In this document: positions 67-56,144 of the stretch, piece after piece | Position numbering within the stretch: the stretch's first letter is position 1 | How the letters are laid out: every line of letters begins with the position of its first letter | From: a virus | Taxonomy: Duplodnaviria; Caudoviricetes | Length of the DNA stretch: 56,144 nucleotides | Direction: 5' to 3' (one strand) | Virus record (IMG/VR): IMGVR_UViG_3300045957_000043 | Span: 1 to 56,144 of that record | Notes under the pieces: generated by a model | Seen by the model: the letters and a program-made list of their open reading frames with translations, nothing else | What the model was told of the DNA's origin: nothing | Databases searched by the model: none | Translations under genes and position numbers: made by a program

Positions 67-127
67 GCCGCGTGTAGGTCGCGCGAACCTGCCCTAGATC
101 GGTCTAGCCTAGGGCAGGCTGCGCGGC
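67..127 (+). other. Intergenic stem-loop in the early transcript
   Basis: CCTGCCCTAG (88-97) pairs with CTAGGGCAGG (109-118); outer GCCGCG/CGCGGC. Confidence 0.5.
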
Positions 128-159
128 TTACTTGTGCCACCAATCTGTCACTACATTAT

Positions 160-170
160 GAAAGGCTAGA
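160..170 (+). promoter_or_regulatory. GAAAGGCTAGA translation-initiation motif (one of 7 copies: 160, 494, 796, 872, 1136, 53970, 55357)
   Basis: Identical 11-mer 2-9 nt upstream of ATG codons in the early operon. Confidence 0.85.
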
Positions 171-453: not shown

Positions 454-509
454 CCGTCAATCAGATAAAAGAGCAGGCATCGCGATGCCTGCAGAAAGGC
501 TAGAAACCC

Positions 510-623
510 ATGTTTACGGAACGTGACGCGATCTGTGTAGTTCTGATTCTGCTGGTCGGCGGTCTCGCCGAACTGTACCGGGTGCACTGTCAGCTAGAGG
601 AGCTTTGGCGCGATGACGAGTAA
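510..623 (+). CDS. Small hydrophobic early protein (37 aa; not in ORF track)
   Basis: MFTERDAICVVLILLVGGLAELYRVHCQLEELWRDDE; motif at 494-504, preceded by a 20-bp palindrome at 473-492. Confidence 0.65.
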   Translation: MFTERDAICVVLILLVGGLAELYRVHCQLEELWRDDE

Positions 624-813
624 CGTAGTCGGAGCTATACGGTATGCCGTACTCGAAAGCGATGAGTCTCTAAGATCGCTCGCCAGAAAAGCAGGCGTTA
701 ACGTTAGCGTAGTCTCGCGATTCGCATGTGGTCGCGATATTTCTGTCGATAACTTAACTAAGCTTGCCCGCGCGGTCGGGTGTGCAATCGCTATCGAAAG
801 GCTAGAAAGATGA
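613..813 (+). CDS. XRE/Cro-like helix-turn-helix protein
   Basis: SLRSLARKAGVNVSVVSRF...ISVDNLTKLARAVG HTH pattern. Confidence 0.8.
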   Translation: MTSNVVGAIRYAVLESDESLRSLARKAGVNVSVVSRFACGRDISVDNLTKLARAVGCAIAIERLER

Positions 814-881
814 GCGTCACAGCTTGGCTACTGTTGTCGATGATTGTAGTTGTCACTTCGATGTGTTTTTTGAAAGGCTAG
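810..881 (+). CDS. 23-aa hydrophobic peptide (not in ORF track)
   Basis: MSVTAWLLLSMIVVVTSMCFLKG; motif at 796-806 upstream; its TAG stop lies inside the next motif copy. Confidence 0.55.
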   Translation: MSVTAWLLLSMIVVVTSMCFLKG

Positions 882-884
882 ATT

Positions 885-1145
885 ATGAACGACAGATACC
901 CAACTCATAAGCCGTTTACCGACCCGGCTTGGTCAGCAGACATGCTCAGGGACTACGAAAGCAACGGTGGCGAAATCTACGTCTCGCGGGTCGACTGGTG
1001 CACCTCAACCGGGCGTCGAATCAGCCACGATATCGAAGCCCCCACGGAAGCTATCGCGAGACTACAGACTAGGCGTTTAACCGGACTTGGCGCCAACCGT
1101 GGCTATGAAGTTTTTGCACAAGATCACCCCACTAAGAAAGGCTAG
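885..1145 (+). CDS. Hypothetical early protein
   Basis: 86-aa ORF, motif at 872-882. Confidence 0.7.
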   Translation: MNDRYPTHKPFTDPAWSADMLRDYESNGGEIYVSRVDWCTSTGRRISHDIEAPTEAIARLQTRRLTGLGANRGYEVFAQDHPTKKG

Positions 1146-1155
1146 ATAGAAGATC

Positions 1156-19260: not shown

Positions 19261-19641
19261 ATGCAGGTTAAGTTTGCTGACTACCCGTGGGTCGCCAGGG
19301 CTATTGCTAGTCGCGGCGGCAACTACAAATTTCCACCCGAGCGGTTTTCGGCGCGTCGTTTAGTGGAGTACCAAGGGCGGCTCATCTATGCTGCGTCGCA
19401 ACTCGAACTGATCGCTGATATGCTACAGAAATACGGCGTCGAAGCGGTTGATCTCGTCGGGGGAGACAACATCGAAAACGCCGTGAATCTTGTTGAGCGA
19501 ACTGTGGGGCTGATCGCGGATCAGTGCTCAGGGTATGCGATCCACTATAAGACGAAACAGTCGTTTGTTACTGACGAGCCCGGCGACGCCCCCAAAAGAA
19601 AACGGGGGCGCCCTAGAAAGAAACCGCACGACGAAGCTTAG
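19261..19641 (+). CDS. Hypothetical protein with a C-terminal AT-hook
   Basis: KRKRGRPRKK; GAAAGG RBS. Confidence 0.75.
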   Translation: MQVKFADYPWVARAIASRGGNYKFPPERFSARRLVEYQGRLIYAASQLELIADMLQKYGVEAVDLVGGDNIENAVNLVERTVGLIADQCSGYAIHYKTKQSFVTDEPGDAPKRKRGRPRKKPHDEA

Positions 19642-20516
19642 ATAGGTTTAGGCGATTTCAGCGTTTCGGGGACAACCCGCGAAATAAGGTAGTGCTTTCG
19701 AAAAGTACTTTCGTTCGCGTGGCCCAGGTGAGTGCGGCCAGCTTCAATCCCGTATCTGCGGAATACATCTGTGCCGCTTCCGGCTCTTAGCCCGCCCAAG
19801 GTGTGACCAGGGAAACCGCCGGCTTGCTTAATAATCCGGGCAGCTTCGCCGAAAAAGTGGCGCTCGTCCCCTGGCAAGGGGAAAACTAACTCGCGAGCAG
19901 GAAGCTTGATCTTTTCGATGGCTCTGAGTGTATTCTCTGAGAACCGCCAGCAAATCGGGTTTCCGGTCTTCTCGCGCATGCGCACGACTACCCCGTCTTC
20001 CTGGATCTGGTCGAACCTAAGCGATCTCAAGTCTTTCGGGTGTGAACTGTCCCAAGTTGCGCGAATATACGCGACCCAGAAATCCCCGCGACAGATCCCA
20101 TTGCGCCTGTATTTTTTACTCAACCACTTCCGGTATCGCGGTAGCGGGTTTTCCAGTCGGTGAATCAGCTCTGAAGCTTCTTCCCAGGAAAACCCTTCAG
20201 TCGGTTTCGAGTCTTGACGGATCTTTACAGTGTTGTACCGCGACAGCTCTTCGGTGATCAGCTTTTGAGCCCTCGCGGCGTTGCACAACACACAGAGGAT
20301 AGTCTTGTAGAGCTTCCGTGTGCTGGAAGCGAGTCCGTCTGTTCTCAGCTGAACAAGATGCCGGTTGACCGCTTCCGGGTTCAGGTCTTCGACGGTTGCT
20401 TCCCGCCCTAGCGTGGCGCTGAATTTCTTCACCGTGAGATGCAGCGTTTTGACGTATTTCTTGCTGAGGTCTTCTCGTAACAGGATGTAGCTGTCGACAA
20501 AATCGCGAAGCAACAT
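19638..20516 (-). CDS. int: Tyrosine recombinase/integrase (catalytic residues partly degenerate)
   Basis: SAM-like N-domain, EKTG, GLR, HLGH, RKHY; GGAGAGGA RBS. Confidence 0.8.
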   Translation of the reverse strand: MLLRDFVDSYILLREDLSKKYVKTLHLTVKKFSATLGREATVEDLNPEAVNRHLVQLRTDGLASSTRKLYKTILCVLCNAARAQKLITEELSRYNTVKIRQDSKPTEGFSWEEASELIHRLENPLPRYRKWLSKKYRRNGICRGDFWVAYIRATWDSSHPKDLRSLRFDQIQEDGVVVRMREKTGNPICWRFSENTLRAIEKIKLPARELVFPLPGDERHFFGEAARIIKQAGGFPGHTLGGLRAGSGTDVFRRYGIEAGRTHLGHANESTFRKHYLISRVVPETLKSPKPI

Positions 20517-20552
20517 AGTGTCCTCTCCTAGTAAGCTGAACCAGCCAGAATC

Positions 20553-20790
20553 ATAGGCTGAACAAACACAAACGATAGGCTGCACGAAATGCAAACCTCA
20601 AACCGACGGGTCTATTATATTAGACTAAGCATCGGTAGGTCAATACCATCGGCCTACTATGCCAGCCTAGGTAATATAGGCCGCCAAGGGCATGTAACCA
20701 AAGTAGCGAATCGCTTCGGGCTGTCAACAAGCTAGGCTGCACAACCGCTAAAGAATAGGCAGAAGTATCGCCGAACCATAGGCTGCACAA
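20553..20790. promoter_or_regulatory. Direct repeats (A)TAGGCTG(C/A)AC, putative operator or arm-type sites
   Basis: Copies at 20553, 20575, 20733, 20778. Confidence 0.6.
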
Positions 20791-20796
20791 GTCGGT

Positions 20797-20825
20797 TTGC
20801 CAAGCAGGAGGCGAGCGGGTACACT
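20797..20825 (+). promoter_or_regulatory. Sigma70-like promoter
   Basis: TTGCCA (20797-20802)-17bp-TACACT (20820-20825). Confidence 0.7.
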
Positions 20826-20831
20826 GATCTT

Positions 20832-20893
20832 TAAGGCGGCGGGCTGTGCAGAGTTACTAGCCTTTCGATGTGCGGCCCGTTCGCCTCTCTTCT
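20832..20893 (+). ncRNA. Putative antisense sRNA or structured leader
   Basis: 17-bp stem (G-U pairs valid only on the + strand); 18-nt loop carries CTAGCCTTTCG, antisense to the early-gene RBS motif; starts at the predicted +1. Confidence 0.6.
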
Positions 20894-20919
20894 AGATTGC
20901 AACGAAAGGATCTCTACAC

Positions 20920-21222
20920 GTGGCCGAAAAGGACAAAACAGACCTCAGGTCTGATCTGCTGATGCAAGCGGTGCGCAATCTAATCCTGCGGTATCTGCGC
21001 GATCACCGAGGCGCCACCGCTTCGGAAATTATCGAACGCGCGGGGATCTGCAAGAGCCACTTTTACGCCATCATGGGCTCGACTAGCGGCTACTACCCGA
21101 CTATCAAAACGGTGCTGCTGCTTCTCAATGCAATCAACTGCGACCTGGAAATTGTTGAAAAGCTTCCGGCGGGGCTTCGCCGTGAGTCGAAAACTAGCAA
21201 GCAAATCAACTTTGAGTCCTAG
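20920..21222 (+). CDS. HTH transcriptional regulator (repressor/Cro-like)
   Basis: ASEIIERAGICKSHFYAIM...PTIKTVLLLLNAI; divergent from the integrase. Confidence 0.8.
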   Translation: MAEKDKTDLRSDLLMQAVRNLILRYLRDHRGATASEIIERAGICKSHFYAIMGSTSGYYPTIKTVLLLLNAINCDLEIVEKLPAGLRRESKTSKQINFES

Positions 21223-21315
21223 CTAGAAAAAATTTTTGGAAACGTATTCCAATCTTCTGAACGGTAGGTTACTATGCACCCACCATGAGGAAGTCGCAGC
21301 TAAGGGAGCAGCGGG

Positions 21316-21510
21316 ATGCTAATTATCGAACGGAAAACGGATGAAGCGTTCTGGCTGCACACGGACGGCGGGCACGAAGCCCGAATCATTGTAACGCGGA
21401 TCAAAGGAAACCGTGTTCGCATTGGCATCGAGGCCGATATGTCAGTCCGAGTTTGCAGGGAAGAGCTTCGAGGGACCGGGACTGAGGTGCTGGATGGAGA
21501 AGCGACCTAG
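21316..21510 (+). CDS. csrA: Carbon storage regulator CsrA/RsmA homolog
   Basis: MLIIERK.DE...I.VTRIKGNRVRIGIEA...V.V.REEL. Confidence 0.9.
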   Translation: MLIIERKTDEAFWLHTDGGHEARIIVTRIKGNRVRIGIEADMSVRVCREELRGTGTEVLDGEAT

Positions 21511-21554
21511 CTCGGCGGCGGCAGGGGACGTTGCCGCCGAGTTGCTTAATTCCT

Positions 21555-21905
21555 ATGCCGATCAACTCCCGAGCTAAAGGCGCCAGCGGCGAGCGCGAAC
21601 TGGCTAAAAAACTCACCGAGCTAGGCTTCCCGGCCCGGCGCGGGCAACAGTTTTCGGGGCTCGAAGGTAAAGACATCTGCACGGCGGTCGCCGGACTACA
21701 CATTGAGTGTAAACGAGTTGAACGACTCAATCTTCACAAGGCTGTCGACCAAGCGATACGAGACGCAGACGACAGTGAACTCCCGGTGGTGGTCCACCGC
21801 GCGAACGGCAAACCGTGGCTGTTTACTGCTCGCCTGGACGACCTCTTAGCCTTGTTGGAGCTGCTTGCGTGCTGGAAGACTTCGAACCCGACCGAGAAGA
21901 GTTGA
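21555..21905 (+). CDS. Holliday junction resolvase-like PD-(D/E)XK nuclease
   Basis: NSRAKGASGERELAKKL...RRGQQ...D...HIECKR. Confidence 0.85.
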   Translation: MPINSRAKGASGERELAKKLTELGFPARRGQQFSGLEGKDICTAVAGLHIECKRVERLNLHKAVDQAIRDADDSELPVVVHRANGKPWLFTARLDDLLALLELLACWKTSNPTEKS

Positions 21906-22216
21906 GGCGCCGCTTTCGCAACCGGATGGTTGAGGAAAAAGGCGCCGAGCTGATCGAGACAATCGCCATCGCCTTTTACGAGTTCGCGCTCGATCCTGAA
22001 GACTGGATGCAAGAAGACGAGTACCTTGACTGCGCGACAAGTGCCGCTATGTGGTGCTTGGTCAGCTTTCTTAACATGACCCTCTACGAGCTGCAGCAGC
22101 CCGCTCACCACGAGCCTGATCCTGAAAGCATCAGTGAAGTAAACCGAGAAATTCTGGAGCTATCTCGGCTACGAATGTCGCAAGTGTTAATGGATGCGGT
22201 CTCGAAAGACAATTAG
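21815..22216 (+). CDS. Hypothetical protein
   Basis: Acidic ORF in the operon; start uncertain. Confidence 0.6.
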   Translation: MAVYCSPGRPLSLVGAACVLEDFEPDREELRRRFRNRMVEEKGAELIETIAIAFYEFALDPEDWMQEDEYLDCATSAAMWCLVSFLNMTLYELQQPAHHEPDPESISEVNREILELSRLRMSQVLMDAVSKDN

Positions 22217-22275
22217 TTAGTGGCCCTAGAATTACAGTGTAGAACCCAACCAAAACTCGTAGGTAAGGTAGCACT

Positions 22276-22530
22276 GTGCTTGATCTCTTTGTCGTTCTCG
22301 CGGTCGCCGTGGCTTGGGGGGTTTTTGTCTACTCGCGCAAAAAGCCCTTGGAAGGCGGCGTGCCGCCCGGCTCCGAGTCCGCGCAATATCGCGCGCCTTG
22401 CGACTTGTCGCGGGTGAAATGCCTGCTAGAGACACTCGACCCCGAAAAAGACGCGGAGTTGATCGAAGCGATCGTGCGGGCCAGAGTATTAGCCGAGTTA
22501 CCCCAGTCAGTTAGAGACAAACTGAAATGA
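22276..22530 (+). CDS. Small membrane-anchored protein
   Basis: N-terminal TM; ATGA-coupled to the next gene. Confidence 0.7.
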   Translation: MLDLFVVLAVAVAWGVFVYSRKKPLEGGVPPGSESAQYRAPCDLSRVKCLLETLDPEKDAELIEAIVRARVLAELPQSVRDKLK

Positions 22531-53312: not shown

Positions 53313-53815
53313 ACATTAAAGACCTTCAGGTCTTTAATTAGAGCACTACCTTTGTGTAGTCTACTTTCTTGGACCGCAAACCGGTTTCCGGTTTTGAAAA
53401 AATTTTTTGAGGTCGCTCGCTCCCTGCCGGCCTCGGTCGCGGGTCCCATCCGCCGTGGAGGGACCCTACGTCGTCAACCACTACGCAGCAAGCCGCGTAG
53501 CCCGCCTAACAGCCGCGCAGCCTAACTGGCTGTCAGACGGCTGTCAGACAGCGCTGTTAGCCTGCGCGGCTATACGGGCCTCTGGCGCGAAACACCCCGT
53601 CCCCCTAATTTTAGACGCTGCATGTCTACTAGTCGTATACCTGCAGCCTATCGGCAATAGGCTGCAAAACCCCTTGTTTTATAGGGGTTTTCGCGTGTTT
53701 ACATTAAAGACCTGCAGGTCTTTTATTCAGGTGTCGCAATCGCATGGTGCAGTGCAGCAACACTACAAAACGCTAAACTTTTTTGAGCCCAAAGTTTAGC
53801 CTAGGCTAAACTTTG
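53313..53815. promoter_or_regulatory. Palindrome-rich divergent control or packaging region
   Basis: AAAGACCT.CAGGTCTTT at 53318 and 53706; TGCAGCCTAT-N5-ATAGGCTGCA at 53642-53666; 26-bp perfect palindrome at 53790-53815. Confidence 0.6.
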
Positions 53816-53919: not shown

Positions 53920-53982
53920 CAGCAACTGTGTTGCGACGGTGCAACACGCAAGCGACCTACCACACGAACGAAAGGCTAGACC

Positions 53983-55335
53983 ATGACTCTCGAAACCAAC
54001 TTGGAAACAACCCCTTCCCGCAAACGCGCGCAATACGACAATCAATGCCAAGAGTGCGGCAAACCAATCACGAAAAACGTGGACTGGATTGTCCCCGGTC
54101 GCTATCCAGGGCGCAAGCGCTTGAAATGGATTCACGAACGATGCAGGACACCGGCGAATGATCCGCAACGCACGGAAAAACTGGAATTGCGCGTCGATGA
54201 GACCTACGAAACGCGCGGCGCTGGTCGCGTGACGATCACTGTACATGAACCCTGCAACGCTTACCCGTGGATCGCGGGGGACGGGCGCAGCTACGACGCG
54301 AAGGGCTTTTATTACAACCCCGAATCGCCAAATGAAAACGATATCGTGTCGCGCGTCGAACCGCAGTCGGAACCGCAGTCGGAACCGCAGTCCGAACCAC
54401 GGTCCGAACCTCGCAAAACTGGAAACCCGTTTGCGTTTAACGTCCAAGAATTGAACTCTTCGATCGCGCATCTTAGCGCAGTGTCCCACGCTATCGCAGA
54501 ATTGCAATCTCGCGTTGTCGATCTTGAGGCTAACGGCGTGTCTGGCGGCGGCGCAACGCGCATCGTGGTTGAACGCCAAGACGCGCCCGAACTAGAGTTG
54601 AACGAAACCGCGCACGAATGCCTGCAGGACGTGGTTGACCTCGCCTCGCAACGTATTCCTACGCTGCTCGTCGGTCCGACTGGATCAGGAAAAACTTATC
54701 TAGCGCGCCAGCTGTCGCAAGTGCTGGAGTCGCGCAAATTCGGCTCGCTAAGCCTATCTGCCGGCGTAACCGAATCAAAACTAGTCGGTCGCTGCCTGCC
54801 TGATCACACTGGCGGGTTTACGTTCCGCGCAACTGAATTTCTAGATATTTTCGAACACGGTGGGGTTTTCCTCTTTGATGAAGTCGACGCCGCAGATCCG
54901 AACGTGTTGCTTGCTGTGAACTCAGCTATCGCTAACGGGTTCCTTCACCTTCCCGATCGACACGAAAATCCTGTCGCTGAAAAACACGCCGATTGCGTTT
55001 TGATTGCGGCGGCTAACACGTTTATGACTGGACCAGACGCCGCGTTTAGCGGTCGCGACCAGCAAGACGCCGCGTTTATAGACCGGTTCTCAGTCGGAAA
55101 AGTTTGGGTGGATTATTCGCGCGATATCGAGACCGCAATTTGCCCTAGCGAGCGGTTGCGTGAACGATTTTGGGCAATCCGCGAGAAAACGCGCGAGCAC
55201 AACATCCGCCGACCGGTTTCGACGCGCACACTGCAGTCAGCCTACCGCATGCAGATTCAAGGTTGGTCAATCGAGAAAATCATCGACGGGTTCACGCGCG
55301 GCTGGACTGACGACGAAAAGCGAAAATGCTTGTAG
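53983..55335 (+). CDS. MoxR/CobS-like AAA+ ATPase
   Basis: GPTGSGKT, LFDEVD, AAANT, DAAFIDRF, STR; N-terminal CxxC and EPQS repeats. Confidence 0.9.
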   Translation: MTLETNLETTPSRKRAQYDNQCQECGKPITKNVDWIVPGRYPGRKRLKWIHERCRTPANDPQRTEKLELRVDETYETRGAGRVTITVHEPCNAYPWIAGDGRSYDAKGFYYNPESPNENDIVSRVEPQSEPQSEPQSEPRSEPRKTGNPFAFNVQELNSSIAHLSAVSHAIAELQSRVVDLEANGVSGGGATRIVVERQDAPELELNETAHECLQDVVDLASQRIPTLLVGPTGSGKTYLARQLSQVLESRKFGSLSLSAGVTESKLVGRCLPDHTGGFTFRATEFLDIFEHGGVFLFDEVDAADPNVLLAVNSAIANGFLHLPDRHENPVAEKHADCVLIAAANTFMTGPDAAFSGRDQQDAAFIDRFSVGKVWVDYSRDIETAICPSERLRERFWAIREKTREHNIRRPVSTRTLQSAYRMQIQGWSIEKIIDGFTRGWTDDEKRKCL

Positions 55336-55369
55336 TCTCAACTCAACTCAACTCACGAAAGGCTAGACT

Positions 55370-56144
55370 ATGACAGCAACAACAACCGGCAACGCGGGTC
55401 AGTTTCGGCACGTTTCCGACAACCAGTACCACTATCGGTTTAACTCAGTCGACGAAATGCTGAACGCGGCGCGTGACGTGCGCTATATGTCACACTCGGA
55501 CTGCATCGACGAACAACGCGCAGGCTTTCTAGGCCGTGCGTTTAGCCCGTGGACGTGGGACGAACTCTACCGGCAGATTGATATCGCAGAAGATGCGGAA
55601 TCGCAGGTCAACAGAATGGTCGCCGACCTGCGCCAGCAAGTTAGCCCGCCAACTACGCGCCGGCGTCGCCGCAAGTTTTCAGAGGATGACGGCAACGATA
55701 TCTGTTGGGATAGACTTCGAAATGGTGGCGCATGGTGGGAAACGCGCGAGCGTAAACAGACCAACAGCATCGCGGTCGTCACGCTAGTCTATAACGTCGC
55801 TAGTGGTTTCCGCATCGACGCTAACGACATCCAATGGCGTACCGCTGCGGCGGTCGCGATCGCGCAACTGCTCGCCGAGGCTAGCTACACTGTGCGGTTG
55901 GTTGCAGCTAGTTCGCAAAGCAGCGCGTACTGCTGCCGATCTGCGCTGCTCACCGAATGCCTAGTGAAACACGAGCGTGAACCGCTAGACGTGCGGCGGG
56001 TTGCGAATATGGGCTCTGGTTGGGTTTATCGAACGGTATGGTGGCGTGTCCGGTTTACCGAAGATAAGCCTAGCAACGTCGACGACCAGCTAGGCACGCC
56101 ACGTGAGCTAACTGCGCAGGACAAGCAGCTGCTAGATACGGTCG
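55370..56144 (+). CDS. vWA-like (CobT-like) partner of the AAA ATPase; continues into 1-65
   Basis: No stop to the window end; VVTLVYNVAS...WRTAAAVAIAQLLAEASY.V.L; motif at 55357. Confidence 0.75.
   Translation, partial: MTATTTGNAGQFRHVSDNQYHYRFNSVDEMLNAARDVRYMSHSDCIDEQRAGFLGRAFSPWTWDELYRQIDIAEDAESQVNRMVADLRQQVSPPTTRRRRRKFSEDDGNDICWDRLRNGGAWWETRERKQTNSIAVVTLVYNVASGFRIDANDIQWRTAAAVAIAQLLAEASYTVRLVAASSQSSAYCCRSALLTECLVKHEREPLDVRRVANMGSGWVYRTVWWRVRFTEDKPSNVDDQLGTPRELTAQDKQLLDTV

What the first reader, a model, noticed from the sequence alone, without database searches (positions are those of the whole stretch)
20797..20893. Promoter-driven hairpin sRNA whose loop is antisense to the RBS of seven early genes
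Seen: TTGCCA-17-TACACT puts +1 near 20832, exactly where a 17-bp stem begins (20834-20850 / 20869-20886). Four G-U pairs work only for + strand RNA. The 18-nt loop GAGUUACUAGCCUUUCGA contains CUAGCCUUUC(G), the perfect complement of (C)GAAAGGCUAG found upstream of seven early start codons ~20-35 kb away, with a 13-nt match to the copy at 793-805. It sits between the integrase and an HTH gene. On the minus strand no start codon follows it, so it is not an eighth RBS. Established: P1/P7 c4 and P4 CI RNAs control immunity by loop-target pairing. Inference: one trans-acting RNA silences the whole early operon by occluding a shared SD, as an RNA-based lysogeny or early shut-off switch.
Basis: partly seen in the sequence, partly recalled or inferred. 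Interest (0 to 1): 0.88.

Follow-up and report, generated by a model that had tools for sequence, protein, structure and literature searches.

The report
Phage hairpin loop mirroring ribosome-site tag
An uncultured temperate phage puts the same 11-base tag on the ribosome-binding sites of seven genes and keeps one mirror-image copy in the open loop of an RNA hairpin at the start of a regulator operon, so one RNA probably turns those genes down together, but no transcript or related phage is available to prove it.

Summary
GAAAGGCTAG occurs 8 times (0.08 expected). Seven copies lie 2-9 nt before ATG codons on the + strand. The eighth is inverted and sits in the 18-nt loop of a + strand hairpin (20834-20886; -29.4 kcal/mol, z -3.55, against -19.3 on the other strand). 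A promoter-like site ends 8 nt before the stem. Only about 0.1% of positions in the window could place a 10-mer in such a loop, so chance is unlikely.

The hairpin has no U-tract terminator. It is more likely the 5' leader of an HTH-like/CsrA operon than a free 60-nt sRNA. The loop fits the distant tags (10-13 bp) better than its own ribosome site (7 bp).

I found no relatives and no RNA data, so covariation and expression are untested.

The closest published parallel is the start-associated sequences of Cluster K mycobacteriophages. In Adephagia the single reversed copy also lies in a hairpin loop. However, four Cluster K phages that I searched genome-wide or aligned keep the tags without an exact mirror copy.

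This scan has noted the same layout on other phage DNA.

Verdict: probable trans-acting anti-RBS leader RNA, confidence about 0.5.

The parts
20797..20825 (+). Promoter-like site TTGCCA-17-TACACT. It would start transcription at about 20831-20833, 1-3 nt before the stem.
   Evidence: 9 of 12 matches; 5 promoter-like sites in 19500-22500 against 1.0 in shuffles. This is a consensus match only, not shown to be active.
20834..20886 (+). RNA hairpin: 5' arm 20834-20850, 18-nt loop 20851-20868, 3' arm 20869-20886. It has 17 pairs including four G-U and one bulged U.
   Evidence: -29.4 kcal/mol, z -3.55 on +; -19.3, z -1.38 on -; among hairpins with window MFE of -25 or lower and a stem of 12 or more pairs, it is the only one in the window whose loop is wider than 11 nt.
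20857..20866 (+). Anti-tag CUAGCCUUUC inside the loop, the exact complement of tag bases 1-10. It extends to 13 nt against the copy at 793-805.
   Evidence: Opening the loop costs 1.55 kcal/mol.
20903..20909 (+). CGAAAGG, the SD of the downstream HTH-like gene. It is a 7-nt partner for the loop in cis.
   Evidence: inverted repeat I6, 20861-20870 / 20900-20909, 90%; duplex -12.3 kcal/mol.
20920..21222 (+). HTH-like gene (100 aa, GTG start), the first gene after the hairpin.
   Evidence: sub-threshold HTH families; model pLDDT 69.5, nearest folds XRE-type HTH at weak E-values; no homologue among 5.8 billion proteins other than itself.
21316..21510 (+). CsrA-family RNA-binding protein gene in the same + strand gene string.
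   Evidence: PF02599, E 5.5e-12, 45.9 bits against a cut-off of 27; phrog_9500.
160..170 (+). Tag GAAAGGCTAGA before ATG 175 (92-aa ORF).
494..504 (+). Tag before ATG 510 (37-aa hydrophobic ORF).
796..806 (+). Tag before ATG 810 (23-aa ORF). It lies inside the 3' end of the Cro/C1-type gene 613-813 and gives the 13-nt match to the loop.
872..882 (+). Tag before ATG 885 (86-aa ORF). Its TAG is the stop codon of ORF 810-881.
1136..1146 (+). Tag before ATG 1156 (87-aa ORF). Its TAG is the stop codon of ORF 885-1145.
53970..53980 (+). Tag before ATG 53983 (450-aa CobS-like AAA ATPase).
55357..55367 (+). Tag before ATG 55370 (DUF7192 protein; the ORF runs off the contig).
19638..20516 (-). Tyrosine-integrase-like gene, divergent from the hairpin operon.
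   Evidence: phrog_1, E 7.3e-11. SAM-like domain just under the cut-off. The start at ATG 20516 with AGGAGAGG before it was read.

Best explanation
The + strand of 20832-20890 is transcribed from the promoter-like site at 20797-20825. It forms the 5' end of the mRNA for the HTH-like gene, csrA and the genes after it. A fraction may be released as a short RNA by processing or weak termination.

This stretch folds into a 17-bp stem that holds open an 18-nt loop. Ten loop bases (CUAGCCUUUC), and up to 13 for one target, pair with a private ribosome-site tag, GAAAGGCUAG(A). The tag combines a GAAAGG Shine-Dalgarno with a CUAGA extension. It precedes seven genes of the other + strand gene block: small proteins, a CobS-like ATPase and DUF7192.

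Pairing covers the SD and blocks 30S binding, so expression of the HTH/CsrA operon lowers translation of the tagged genes in trans. The same loop can pair more weakly (7 nt) with its own gene's SD.

Shown here: the sequences, the fold and its strand bias, the non-random placement and favourable predicted energies.

Inferred: transcription, pairing in vivo, repression, and any role in lysogeny or timing.
For: - Eight exact copies against 0.08 expected, with no degenerate halo.
- Seven copies are at SD distance from ATG.
- GAAAGG alone also serves as SD for two other + strand genes without CTAGA. The extension is therefore not needed for ribosome binding and calls for a second reader.
- The eighth copy is inverted, has no start codon after it, and lies wholly in the apical loop.
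- Only 116 of 112,288 strand positions (0.10%) can put a 10-mer in an apical loop of 10 nt or more closed by a 10-bp stem. In the stricter class, 9 of the 13 positions belong to this hairpin. Expected chance copies times loop space is about 1e-4.
- All four wobble pairs favour the + strand, which is the antisense orientation.
- A promoter-like site ends 8 nt before the stem.
- The four loop bases beyond CCUUUCG match the distant tag 4 of 4 but the gene's own RBS only 1 of 4 (read).
- Net predicted interaction is -5.7 to -19.4 kcal/mol for 7 of 7 targets.
- The setting is a regulatory hub: a divergent integrase gene, repeated ATAGGCTGCA sites that recur as a palindrome upstream of the tagged block, and csrA next door.
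- Among 9 SD-like tags found in other CobS-carrying phage loci, 0 had an antisense copy in a hairpin loop. The layout is therefore not a by-product of having a tag.
- Independent parallel: Mycobacterium phage Adephagia has 16 forward start-associated sequences and one reversed copy. That copy sits in the 10-nt loop of a -33.7 kcal/mol hairpin, z -5.95. It lies in the gene 92-93 gap, where late transcription appears to initiate (PMC11373665, passage). The loop is identical in 6 of 9 aligned Cluster K phages although the stems differ.
Against: - This is one genome only. No relative was found in any collection, so there is no covariation test.
- There is no U-tract terminator, so no defined short RNA.
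- The promoter match is modest, 9 of 12.
- The hairpin's stability is not exceptional; it ranks just below the top 40 windows.
- The conserved tag is 11 nt but the loop complements only 10.
- Other phages keep strictly conserved extended RBSs with no antisense copy in the DNA fetched, for example L031 with 8 copies. A conserved tag alone therefore does not demand an RNA partner.
- In the Cluster K parallel, Pixie, ShedlockHolmes and Ekdilam keep 17-19 exact tag cores but have no exact reversed copy genome-wide. Pharb lacks it at the homologous locus. The tags therefore work without the loop there.
- The finding was noticed post hoc by a reader looking for such relations.
Confidence: 0.5

Rival explanations
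1. The hairpin is a cis-only leader element. It is a 5'-terminal stabiliser of the HTH-like/CsrA mRNA, and its loop masks that gene's own SD (CCUUUCG with CGAAAGG). The match to the distant tags would follow only because all these genes use a GAAAGG-type SD.
For: - The hairpin sits at the predicted 5' end and has no terminator, so it is part of that mRNA.
- There is a 7-nt perfect and 10-nt 90% complement to 20900-20909, with a duplex of -12.3 kcal/mol.
Against: - Beyond the shared 7 nt, the loop follows the distant tag (CUAG, 4 of 4) and not its own RBS (1 of 4). By chance that is about 1 in 256.
- Trans duplexes are 5-9 kcal/mol stronger than the cis one.
- A pseudoknot across a 17-bp stem with a 13-nt linker is strained (inference).
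Confidence: 0.15
2. The 11-mer is a DNA site for a phage protein, a stoperator-like or operator-like element read in double-stranded DNA. The eighth copy would simply be a site in the opposite orientation near the regulator gene, and the flanking inverted repeat would be incidental or itself a protein site. A variant of this reading is that the eighth copy is a relic RBS of a lost - strand gene.
For: - The motif is sharply bounded at 11 nt, about one helical turn.
- Two candidate DNA-binding proteins are encoded.
- Pope et al. 2011 left open a protein or an RNA reader for start-associated sequences and contrasted them with the L5 stoperators (PMC3203893, passage).
- The 11th conserved base is not explained by loop pairing.
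Against: - All seven copies contain an SD at SD spacing, 7-14 nt from GG to ATG. A DNA site would not need this.
- The contig has a separate and better operator candidate, ATAGGCTGCA, confined to the two regulatory regions.
- A DNA site does not explain the loop position or the one-sided G-U pairs.
Confidence: 0.15
3. Coincidence. An ordinary leader or structural hairpin happens to contain the reverse complement of a repeated RBS.
For: - One antisense 10-mer has a 4-8% chance per contig.
- An 8-nt partial complement also turns up in another hairpin, at 103-110, at a frequency near chance.
Against: - The joint requirement of loop placement, strand polarity, promoter spacing and an intergenic regulatory location brings the expectation to roughly 1e-4.
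- 0 of 9 control tags in other loci show it.
- The same layout occurs in Adephagia.
Confidence: 0.12
4. The functional strand is the minus strand. A transcript running towards the integrase gene would present a sense copy of the tag in a loop, as a decoy for whatever binds the tag, such as ribosomes or a tag-binding protein like the phage CsrA.
For: - CsrA-type proteins bind motifs shown in hairpin loops (established knowledge, recalled), and csrA lies 430 nt away.
- The - strand still folds to a hairpin with the tag unpaired.
Against: - The - strand fold is 10 kcal/mol weaker and not better than shuffles: z -1.38, 21 of 200.
- The tag has GGC, not the GGA core of CsrA sites (recalled).
- The only - strand promoter-like site upstream is about 215 nt away inside the HTH gene, and a terminator-like hairpin (20960-20937) lies between them.
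Confidence: 0.05

Closest known systems
Start-associated sequences (SAS) of Cluster K mycobacteriophages (Pope et al. 2011, PMC3203893; passages read)
   Same: - An asymmetric conserved motif that contains an SD core plus bases that cannot pair with 16S rRNA.
- It lies a few nt before the start codons (mostly ATG) of many non-structural genes, in one orientation.
- It sometimes contains the stop codon of the upstream gene.
[quoted passage not shown] I found this copy in Adephagia in a hairpin loop, as in this window.
- Its function is still called unknown in 2024 and 2025 papers.
   Different: - The sequence differs: GGGATAGGAGCCC, 13 nt, against GAAAGGCTAGA, 11 nt.
- The copy numbers differ: 11-19 against 7.
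- The host phylum differs.
- The papers I read do not connect the reversed copy with a hairpin or an RNA. PMC12699233 has 0 occurrences of hairpin, antisense or opposite orientation.
- Some Cluster K lineages have the tags without the reversed copy.
- I did not look for the extended SAS inverted repeats here.
c4 antisense RNA of phages P1 and P7 (Rfam C4; as summarised in the review PMC12197685, passages read)
   Same: - A phage-encoded RNA of about 77 nt whose loop sequences pair with target mRNA around a ribosome-binding site and block translation.
- It belongs to an immunity region.
- From recall: c4 is made from the leader of the operon it controls, which resembles the leader position here.
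   Different: - There is no sequence or structure similarity: no Rfam hit even at E up to 10.
- c4 controls one operon (icd-ant) downstream of itself. Here there are seven dispersed targets in another operon that share a tag.
- No antirepressor gene was recognised here.
sar RNA of phage P22 and OOP RNA of lambda (review PMC12197685, passages)
   Same: Small phage antisense RNAs that lower translation or stability of a regulator mRNA in the lysis-lysogeny circuit.
   Different: They are cis-encoded, overlap their single target and are fully complementary to it. This element is trans-encoded 20-35 kb from its targets, with a 10-13-nt match.
C-rich-loop sRNAs of Firmicutes that pair with SD sequences of several mRNAs
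   Same: An apical loop with an anti-SD sequence represses several mRNAs in trans by covering the SD.
   Different: Those loops target the generic host SD, not a private extended tag. They are host-encoded. Membership was not tested.
Stoperators of mycobacteriophage L5 and Cluster A (mentioned in PMC3203893, passage; details recalled)
   Same: A short asymmetric motif repeated in one orientation in short intergenic gaps of phage operons, plus a copy at the regulatory region.
   Different: Stoperators are DNA sites for the repressor and act on transcription. They are not tied to SD spacing. Here every copy carries an SD at SD distance.

Membership tests
c4 antisense RNA (Rfam C4) | Matches the family covariance model | tested here: not met
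   Rfam 15 scan of the whole window at gathering thresholds gave 0 hits. A scan of 20500-21000 at E up to 10 also gave 0 hits.
c4 antisense RNA (Rfam C4) | Loop sequences complementary to the target mRNA at or near the RBS | tested here: met
   10-13 nt of perfect complement to seven RBS tags; the loop is unpaired in the ensemble.
c4 antisense RNA (Rfam C4) | Target is the icd-ant (antirepressor) operon immediately downstream, and the RNA is processed from the same transcript | not testable with these tools
   No antirepressor was recognised. The targets lie in another operon. Only a 7-nt match to the downstream gene's SD exists. Processing needs RNA data.
Start-associated sequences (Cluster K type) | Asymmetric motif with an SD core plus extra conserved bases, a few nt upstream of many start codons, in one orientation, in non-structural genes | tested here: met
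   7 of 7 + strand copies lie 2-9 nt before ATG. None precedes a gene in the large - strand blocks that include the capsid and tail genes.
Start-associated sequences (Cluster K type) | A single copy in the opposite orientation, not at a gene start | tested here: met
   One - strand copy at 20857-20866 with no start codon after it. The same holds in Adephagia.
Start-associated sequences (Cluster K type) | Consensus GGGATAGGAGCCC and relatedness to Cluster K phages | tested here: not met
   The motif is different. blastn of 19600-22300 against 50,697 phage records gave no match.
Start-associated sequences (Cluster K type) | Extended SAS: 17-bp imperfect inverted repeats upstream of about half of the sites | not tested
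   Hairpins lie before two copies (73-132 before copy 160, 473-492 before copy 494). No shared repeat was searched for.
Intrinsic (Rho-independent) terminator | GC-rich stem with a short loop followed by a U run | tested here: not met
   The hairpin is not among the 6 terminator-like sites in 19500-22500. The loop is 18 nt and the tail is CUCUUCUAGAUU.
CsrA-binding hairpin (CsrB/RsmZ-type site) | GGA motif shown in the loop | tested here: not met
   The + strand loop GAGUUACUAGCCUUUCGA has no GGA. The - strand loop has AAGGC. The GGA rule is recalled knowledge.
Stoperator / repressor DNA site | Bound by the phage repressor in double-stranded DNA | not testable with these tools
   This needs binding assays. 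The SD content and spacing of all seven copies argue for an RNA-level role.

The most novel reading that the evidence does not exclude
The hairpin is one half of an RNA-level toggle between two phage operons.

The leader of the HTH-like/CsrA operon silences the seven tagged genes of the Cro-containing operon. In return, an abundant early transcript carrying seven tags titrates the leader loop. That changes whether the loop masks the HTH gene's own SD, which feeds back on the regulator and on CsrA.

Together with the Cluster K case, this would mean that private RBS tags plus one anti-tag loop are a general, convergently evolved way for phages to switch a whole gene class at the level of translation. 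It would also explain the start-associated sequences, whose role has been open since 2011.
Probability: 0.15. Interest if true: 0.85.

Novelty: new variant of a known kind. Interest (0 to 1): 0.6.

Why it matters
If the pairing is real, one short RNA controls a seven-gene set through a sequence tag that the phage adds to its own ribosome sites. This is a simple, programmable form of regulon control by translation. It is distinct from the one-target antisense RNAs known in P1, P22 and lambda.

It also offers a concrete, testable answer to what start-associated sequences do. They were described in Cluster K mycobacteriophages in 2011 and were still called undefined in 2024-2025 papers. I checked that in Adephagia the odd reversed copy is likewise in a hairpin loop. 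Adephagia is a cultured, engineerable phage of M. smegmatis with published RNA-seq, so the idea can be tested at the bench even though this window's host is unknown.

My searches listed no paper that links a reversed tag copy to a regulatory RNA. They cover open-access text only, and supplements were closed.

Tried and rejected
Relatives
- blastn of 19600-22300 against phage records: none.
- The HTH-like protein against 5.8 billion proteins: only itself.
- The search for related loci with the HTH-like, AAA and integrase proteins in viral contigs: none.
- The integrase in metagenome contigs: none.
- The loop 16-mer in viral contigs: none.
- An AAA alignment (A1) gave 80 viral loci at 25-48% identity. 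0 of 80 contain the 10-mer or its complement.
- The same alignment on genome contigs gave only generic MoxR-type hits.
- The two-tag pattern gave 1 viral hit, a coding tandem repeat in a giant-virus bin, and 67 metagenome hits. I tabulated all 67 and inspected 5 (L188, L196, L227, L228, L229). These are paralogue arrays, local duplications and a regularly spaced CRISPR-like repeat array. I did not compare the proteins of the 67 with the window.

RNA and read evidence
- No RNA holder was listed. The one DNA run is probably the source sample.
- Read laying on 54645-56144, done to test whether the contig ends join, laid 0 contigs, so it gave no information.

Other checks
- tRNA scan: none, so there is no tRNA-type attP clue.
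- Rfam: none.
- The screen for tag plus anti-tag in the 80 CobS loci was noisy in its first form and missed even the window's own hairpin. The repaired version found 0 of 9 SD-like tags with a loop-borne antisense copy. Those loci are at most 21 kb, so a hairpin elsewhere in those genomes would be missed.

Readings rejected
- The 32-aa ORF 20797-20895 as a gene: TTG start and no RBS.
- The hairpin as an attP core: an 18-nt spacer is too wide for core-type sites (recalled).
- The tag as a -10-like promoter for leaderless mRNAs: the spacing to ATG varies from 2 to 9 nt.
- A YUNR U-turn (CUAG) in the loop as evidence: about one is expected by chance in 18 nt.

Limits
- Supplements of PMC3203893 (Fig. 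S3, positions of the reversed sites) and of PMC12699233 were not available and may already show the reversed copies.
Full report
What is there

The window is a linear 56,144-bp IMG/VR virus record rated 68% complete. The 10-mer GAAAGGCTAG occurs 8 times, against 0.08 expected. Relaxing to two mismatches adds only chance-level matches: 45 found against 49.7 expected, with one single-mismatch copy. The copies are therefore exact.

Seven copies lie on the + strand at 160, 494, 796, 872, 1136, 53970 and 55357. All seven extend to the 11-mer GAAAGGCTAGA, with no conservation outside it. All are followed by ATG after 2-9 more bases. In two copies the TAG is the stop codon of the upstream ORF (810-881 and 885-1145). 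One copy lies inside the 3' end of a Cro/C1-type HTH_3 gene (613-813).

GAAAGG occurs 11 times on the + strand and twice on the - strand. Nine of the 11 + strand copies precede plausible starts. These are the seven tagged genes plus gene 19261 and the HTH-like gene 20920, and the last two lack CTAGA. A rough gene list suggests that the - strand genes mostly use GGAG-type sites. So GAAAGG works as an SD, and CTAGA is an extra that is confined to one gene set.

The hairpin

The eighth copy is inverted. On the + strand it reads CUAGCCUUUC inside the 18-nt loop (20851-20868) of a 17-pair stem (20834-20850 / 20869-20886) with four G-U pairs and one bulge. The + strand RNA folds at -29.4 kcal/mol, z -3.55, with 1 of 200 shuffles as good. 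The - strand folds at -19.3, z -1.38.

A promoter-like TTGCCA-17-TACACT ends at 20825. No start codon follows the - strand copy. No U-tract follows the stem, and the terminator scan does not list it. Rfam gives nothing, even at E up to 10.

In a scan of all 60-nt windows on both strands, the hairpin falls just below the 40 most stable. Its stability is therefore unremarkable. Its large loop is not. Only 116 of 112,288 positions (0.10%) could place a 10-mer wholly in an apical loop of 10 nt or more closed by a stem of 10 pairs or more. In the stricter class (MFE of -25 or lower, stem of 12 pairs or more) there are 13 such positions, and 9 of them belong to this hairpin.

Surroundings

To the left lies a divergent tyrosine-integrase-like gene (phrog_1, E 7e-11).

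The 400-bp gap between the integrase gene and the HTH-like gene holds four direct copies of ATAGGCTGCA, two exact and two with one mismatch. The only other copies in the window form a perfect palindrome at 53642-53666, about 320 bp upstream of the tagged AAA gene. This is a good candidate for the operator of a DNA-binding regulator. It is distinct from the tag.

To the right come three genes:
- An HTH-like gene. It has sub-threshold Pfam hits, XRE-type nearest folds at weak E-values on a pLDDT 69.5 model, and no homologue in 5.8 billion proteins.
- A CsrA-family gene (E 5.5e-12).
- A RusA-like resolvase gene.

The hairpin is thus at the predicted 5' end of a regulator operon in the phage's control region.

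How it most likely works

The loop is open; opening the 10-mer costs 1.55 kcal/mol. Predicted duplexes with the seven tags are -16.9 to -21.1 kcal/mol. After target opening costs the net is -5.7 to -19.4 kcal/mol. Pairing would cover the SD.

The loop can also pair with its own gene's SD, CGAAAGG. That is only 7 nt (-12.3 kcal/mol). The four further loop bases match the distant tag 4 of 4 and the gene's own RBS 1 of 4. The loop is therefore tuned to the distant genes.

Because there is no terminator, I read the element as the leader of the HTH-like/CsrA mRNA acting in trans, possibly after processing. I do not read it as a separate 60-nt gene. Transcription, pairing and repression are all inferred.

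Comparative evidence: none for this phage

The only sequencing run that holds the region is a DNA run, probably the source, and laying its contigs gave nothing.

The best AAA homologues reach 49% identity and include proteins named from Roseimaritima ulvae and Botrimarina. That is a weak hint of a planctomycete host.

Other CobS-carrying phage loci do have strictly conserved extended RBSs; L031, for example, has 8 copies of an extended GAAAGGAG site. So a conserved tag alone is not unusual. None of 9 such tags had an antisense copy in a hairpin loop within the DNA fetched.

A published parallel, checked here

A note from this scan (e1-5993543) pointed to the start-associated sequences of Cluster K mycobacteriophages. 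Pope et al. 2011 (PMC3203893; passages) describe them as follows:
- A 13-bp asymmetric motif with an SD core and extra conserved bases.
- 11-19 copies, located 3-7 bp before starts, in one orientation.
- A reader, 'either RNA or protein', that is still to be determined.

In Adephagia I found 16 forward sites and 1 reversed site. The reversed site sits in the 10-nt loop CCUCCUAUCC of a hairpin of -33.7 kcal/mol, z -5.95. It lies in the gene 92-93 gap, where late transcription appears to initiate (PMC11373665; passage).

The region matches 143 mycobacteriophage records. I aligned 9 of them:
- Six keep the identical loop on stems that differ.
- Ekdilam has a changed loop.
- Two Keshuvirus phages have a different apical hairpin.

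Genome-wide, Pixie, ShedlockHolmes and Ekdilam keep 17-19 exact tag cores but have no exact reversed copy.

The parallel therefore cuts both ways. The layout recurs and is conserved within a lineage. But the tags function without the loop in sister lineages, so the loop would be an added regulator and not the reason the tags exist.

Verdict

A functional link between loop and tags is likely, and I put trans pairing at about 0.5. The 'independent promoter-driven sRNA', 'whole operon' and 'lysogeny switch' parts are not shown.

It is not a c4 family member. It works like c4 and like anti-SD loop sRNAs, and it looks like a second, unrelated instance of the start-associated-sequence layout. The scan has reported the same layout on at least eight other phage genomes (AI notes that I did not check, apart from the Cluster K lead).

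My literature searches listed no paper that ties a reversed tag copy to an RNA. This covers open-access text only, without supplements.

Noticed in passing
20553-20787 and 53642-53666: ATAGGCTGCA has 4 exact and 2 one-mismatch copies, all in the two regulatory gaps. Four are direct copies between the integrase and HTH-like genes. The other two form a perfect palindrome, TGCAGCCTAT-cggca-ATAGGCTGCA, about 320 bp upstream of the tagged AAA gene. This is a candidate operator or arm-type site.
   Followed up: partly
613-813 (+): A 66-aa Cro/C1-type HTH_3 protein (E 1.8e-5) sits inside the tagged operon. It uses its own GAGGAG site, and its start overlaps the stop of the 37-aa ORF 510-623. Together with the HTH-like gene at 20920 it may form a two-regulator switch.
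   Followed up: partly
21316-21541 (+): A phage CsrA homologue (E 5.5e-12) is followed at once by a 12-bp hairpin with loop AGGGGAC that overlaps the start of the RusA-like gene. The HTH-like gene's own RBS, AAAGGAUCU, also carries a GGA. Both are possible CsrA targets.
   Followed up: partly
73-132 (+): A strong hairpin (about -39 kcal/mol in a 60-nt window) lies just upstream of the first tagged gene. UCUAGCCU, the complement of tag bases 4-11, spans its loop-stem border at 103-110. An 8-mer match is near chance: 2 antisense copies found against about 0.6 expected per strand.
   Followed up: partly
55370-56144 joined to 1-65: Reading from the contig's end into its start continues the DUF7192 ORF for 21 codons to a stop at 63-65, giving 279 aa against a profile length of 281. 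No terminal repeat was found. This is a weak hint that the ends abut and that the two tagged blocks form one operon.
   Followed up: partly
20803-20775 (-) and 20643-20614 (-): There are two - strand promoter-like sites facing the integrase gene. One, TTGGCA-17-TATGGT, shares its -35 with the + strand promoter-like site. The other, TTGACC-18-TATAAT, matches 11 of 12.
   Followed up: no
53983-55335 (+): The best homologues of the CobS-like AAA ATPase (up to 49% identity) include proteins named from the planctomycetes Roseimaritima ulvae and Botrimarina sp. This is a weak hint at the host group.
   Followed up: no
L237:38500-38545 (Adephagia, record about 58500-58545): A run of five near-identical 10-base units (CGCCGACGCC-like) lies about 140 nt upstream of the anti-SAS hairpin in the gene 92-93 gap.
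   Followed up: no
L031 (IMG/VR contig, 15.7 kb): Eight genes share an extended RBS, (C)ACCGAAAGGAGA(C/A)C. No antisense copy occurs on the contig.
   Followed up: partly
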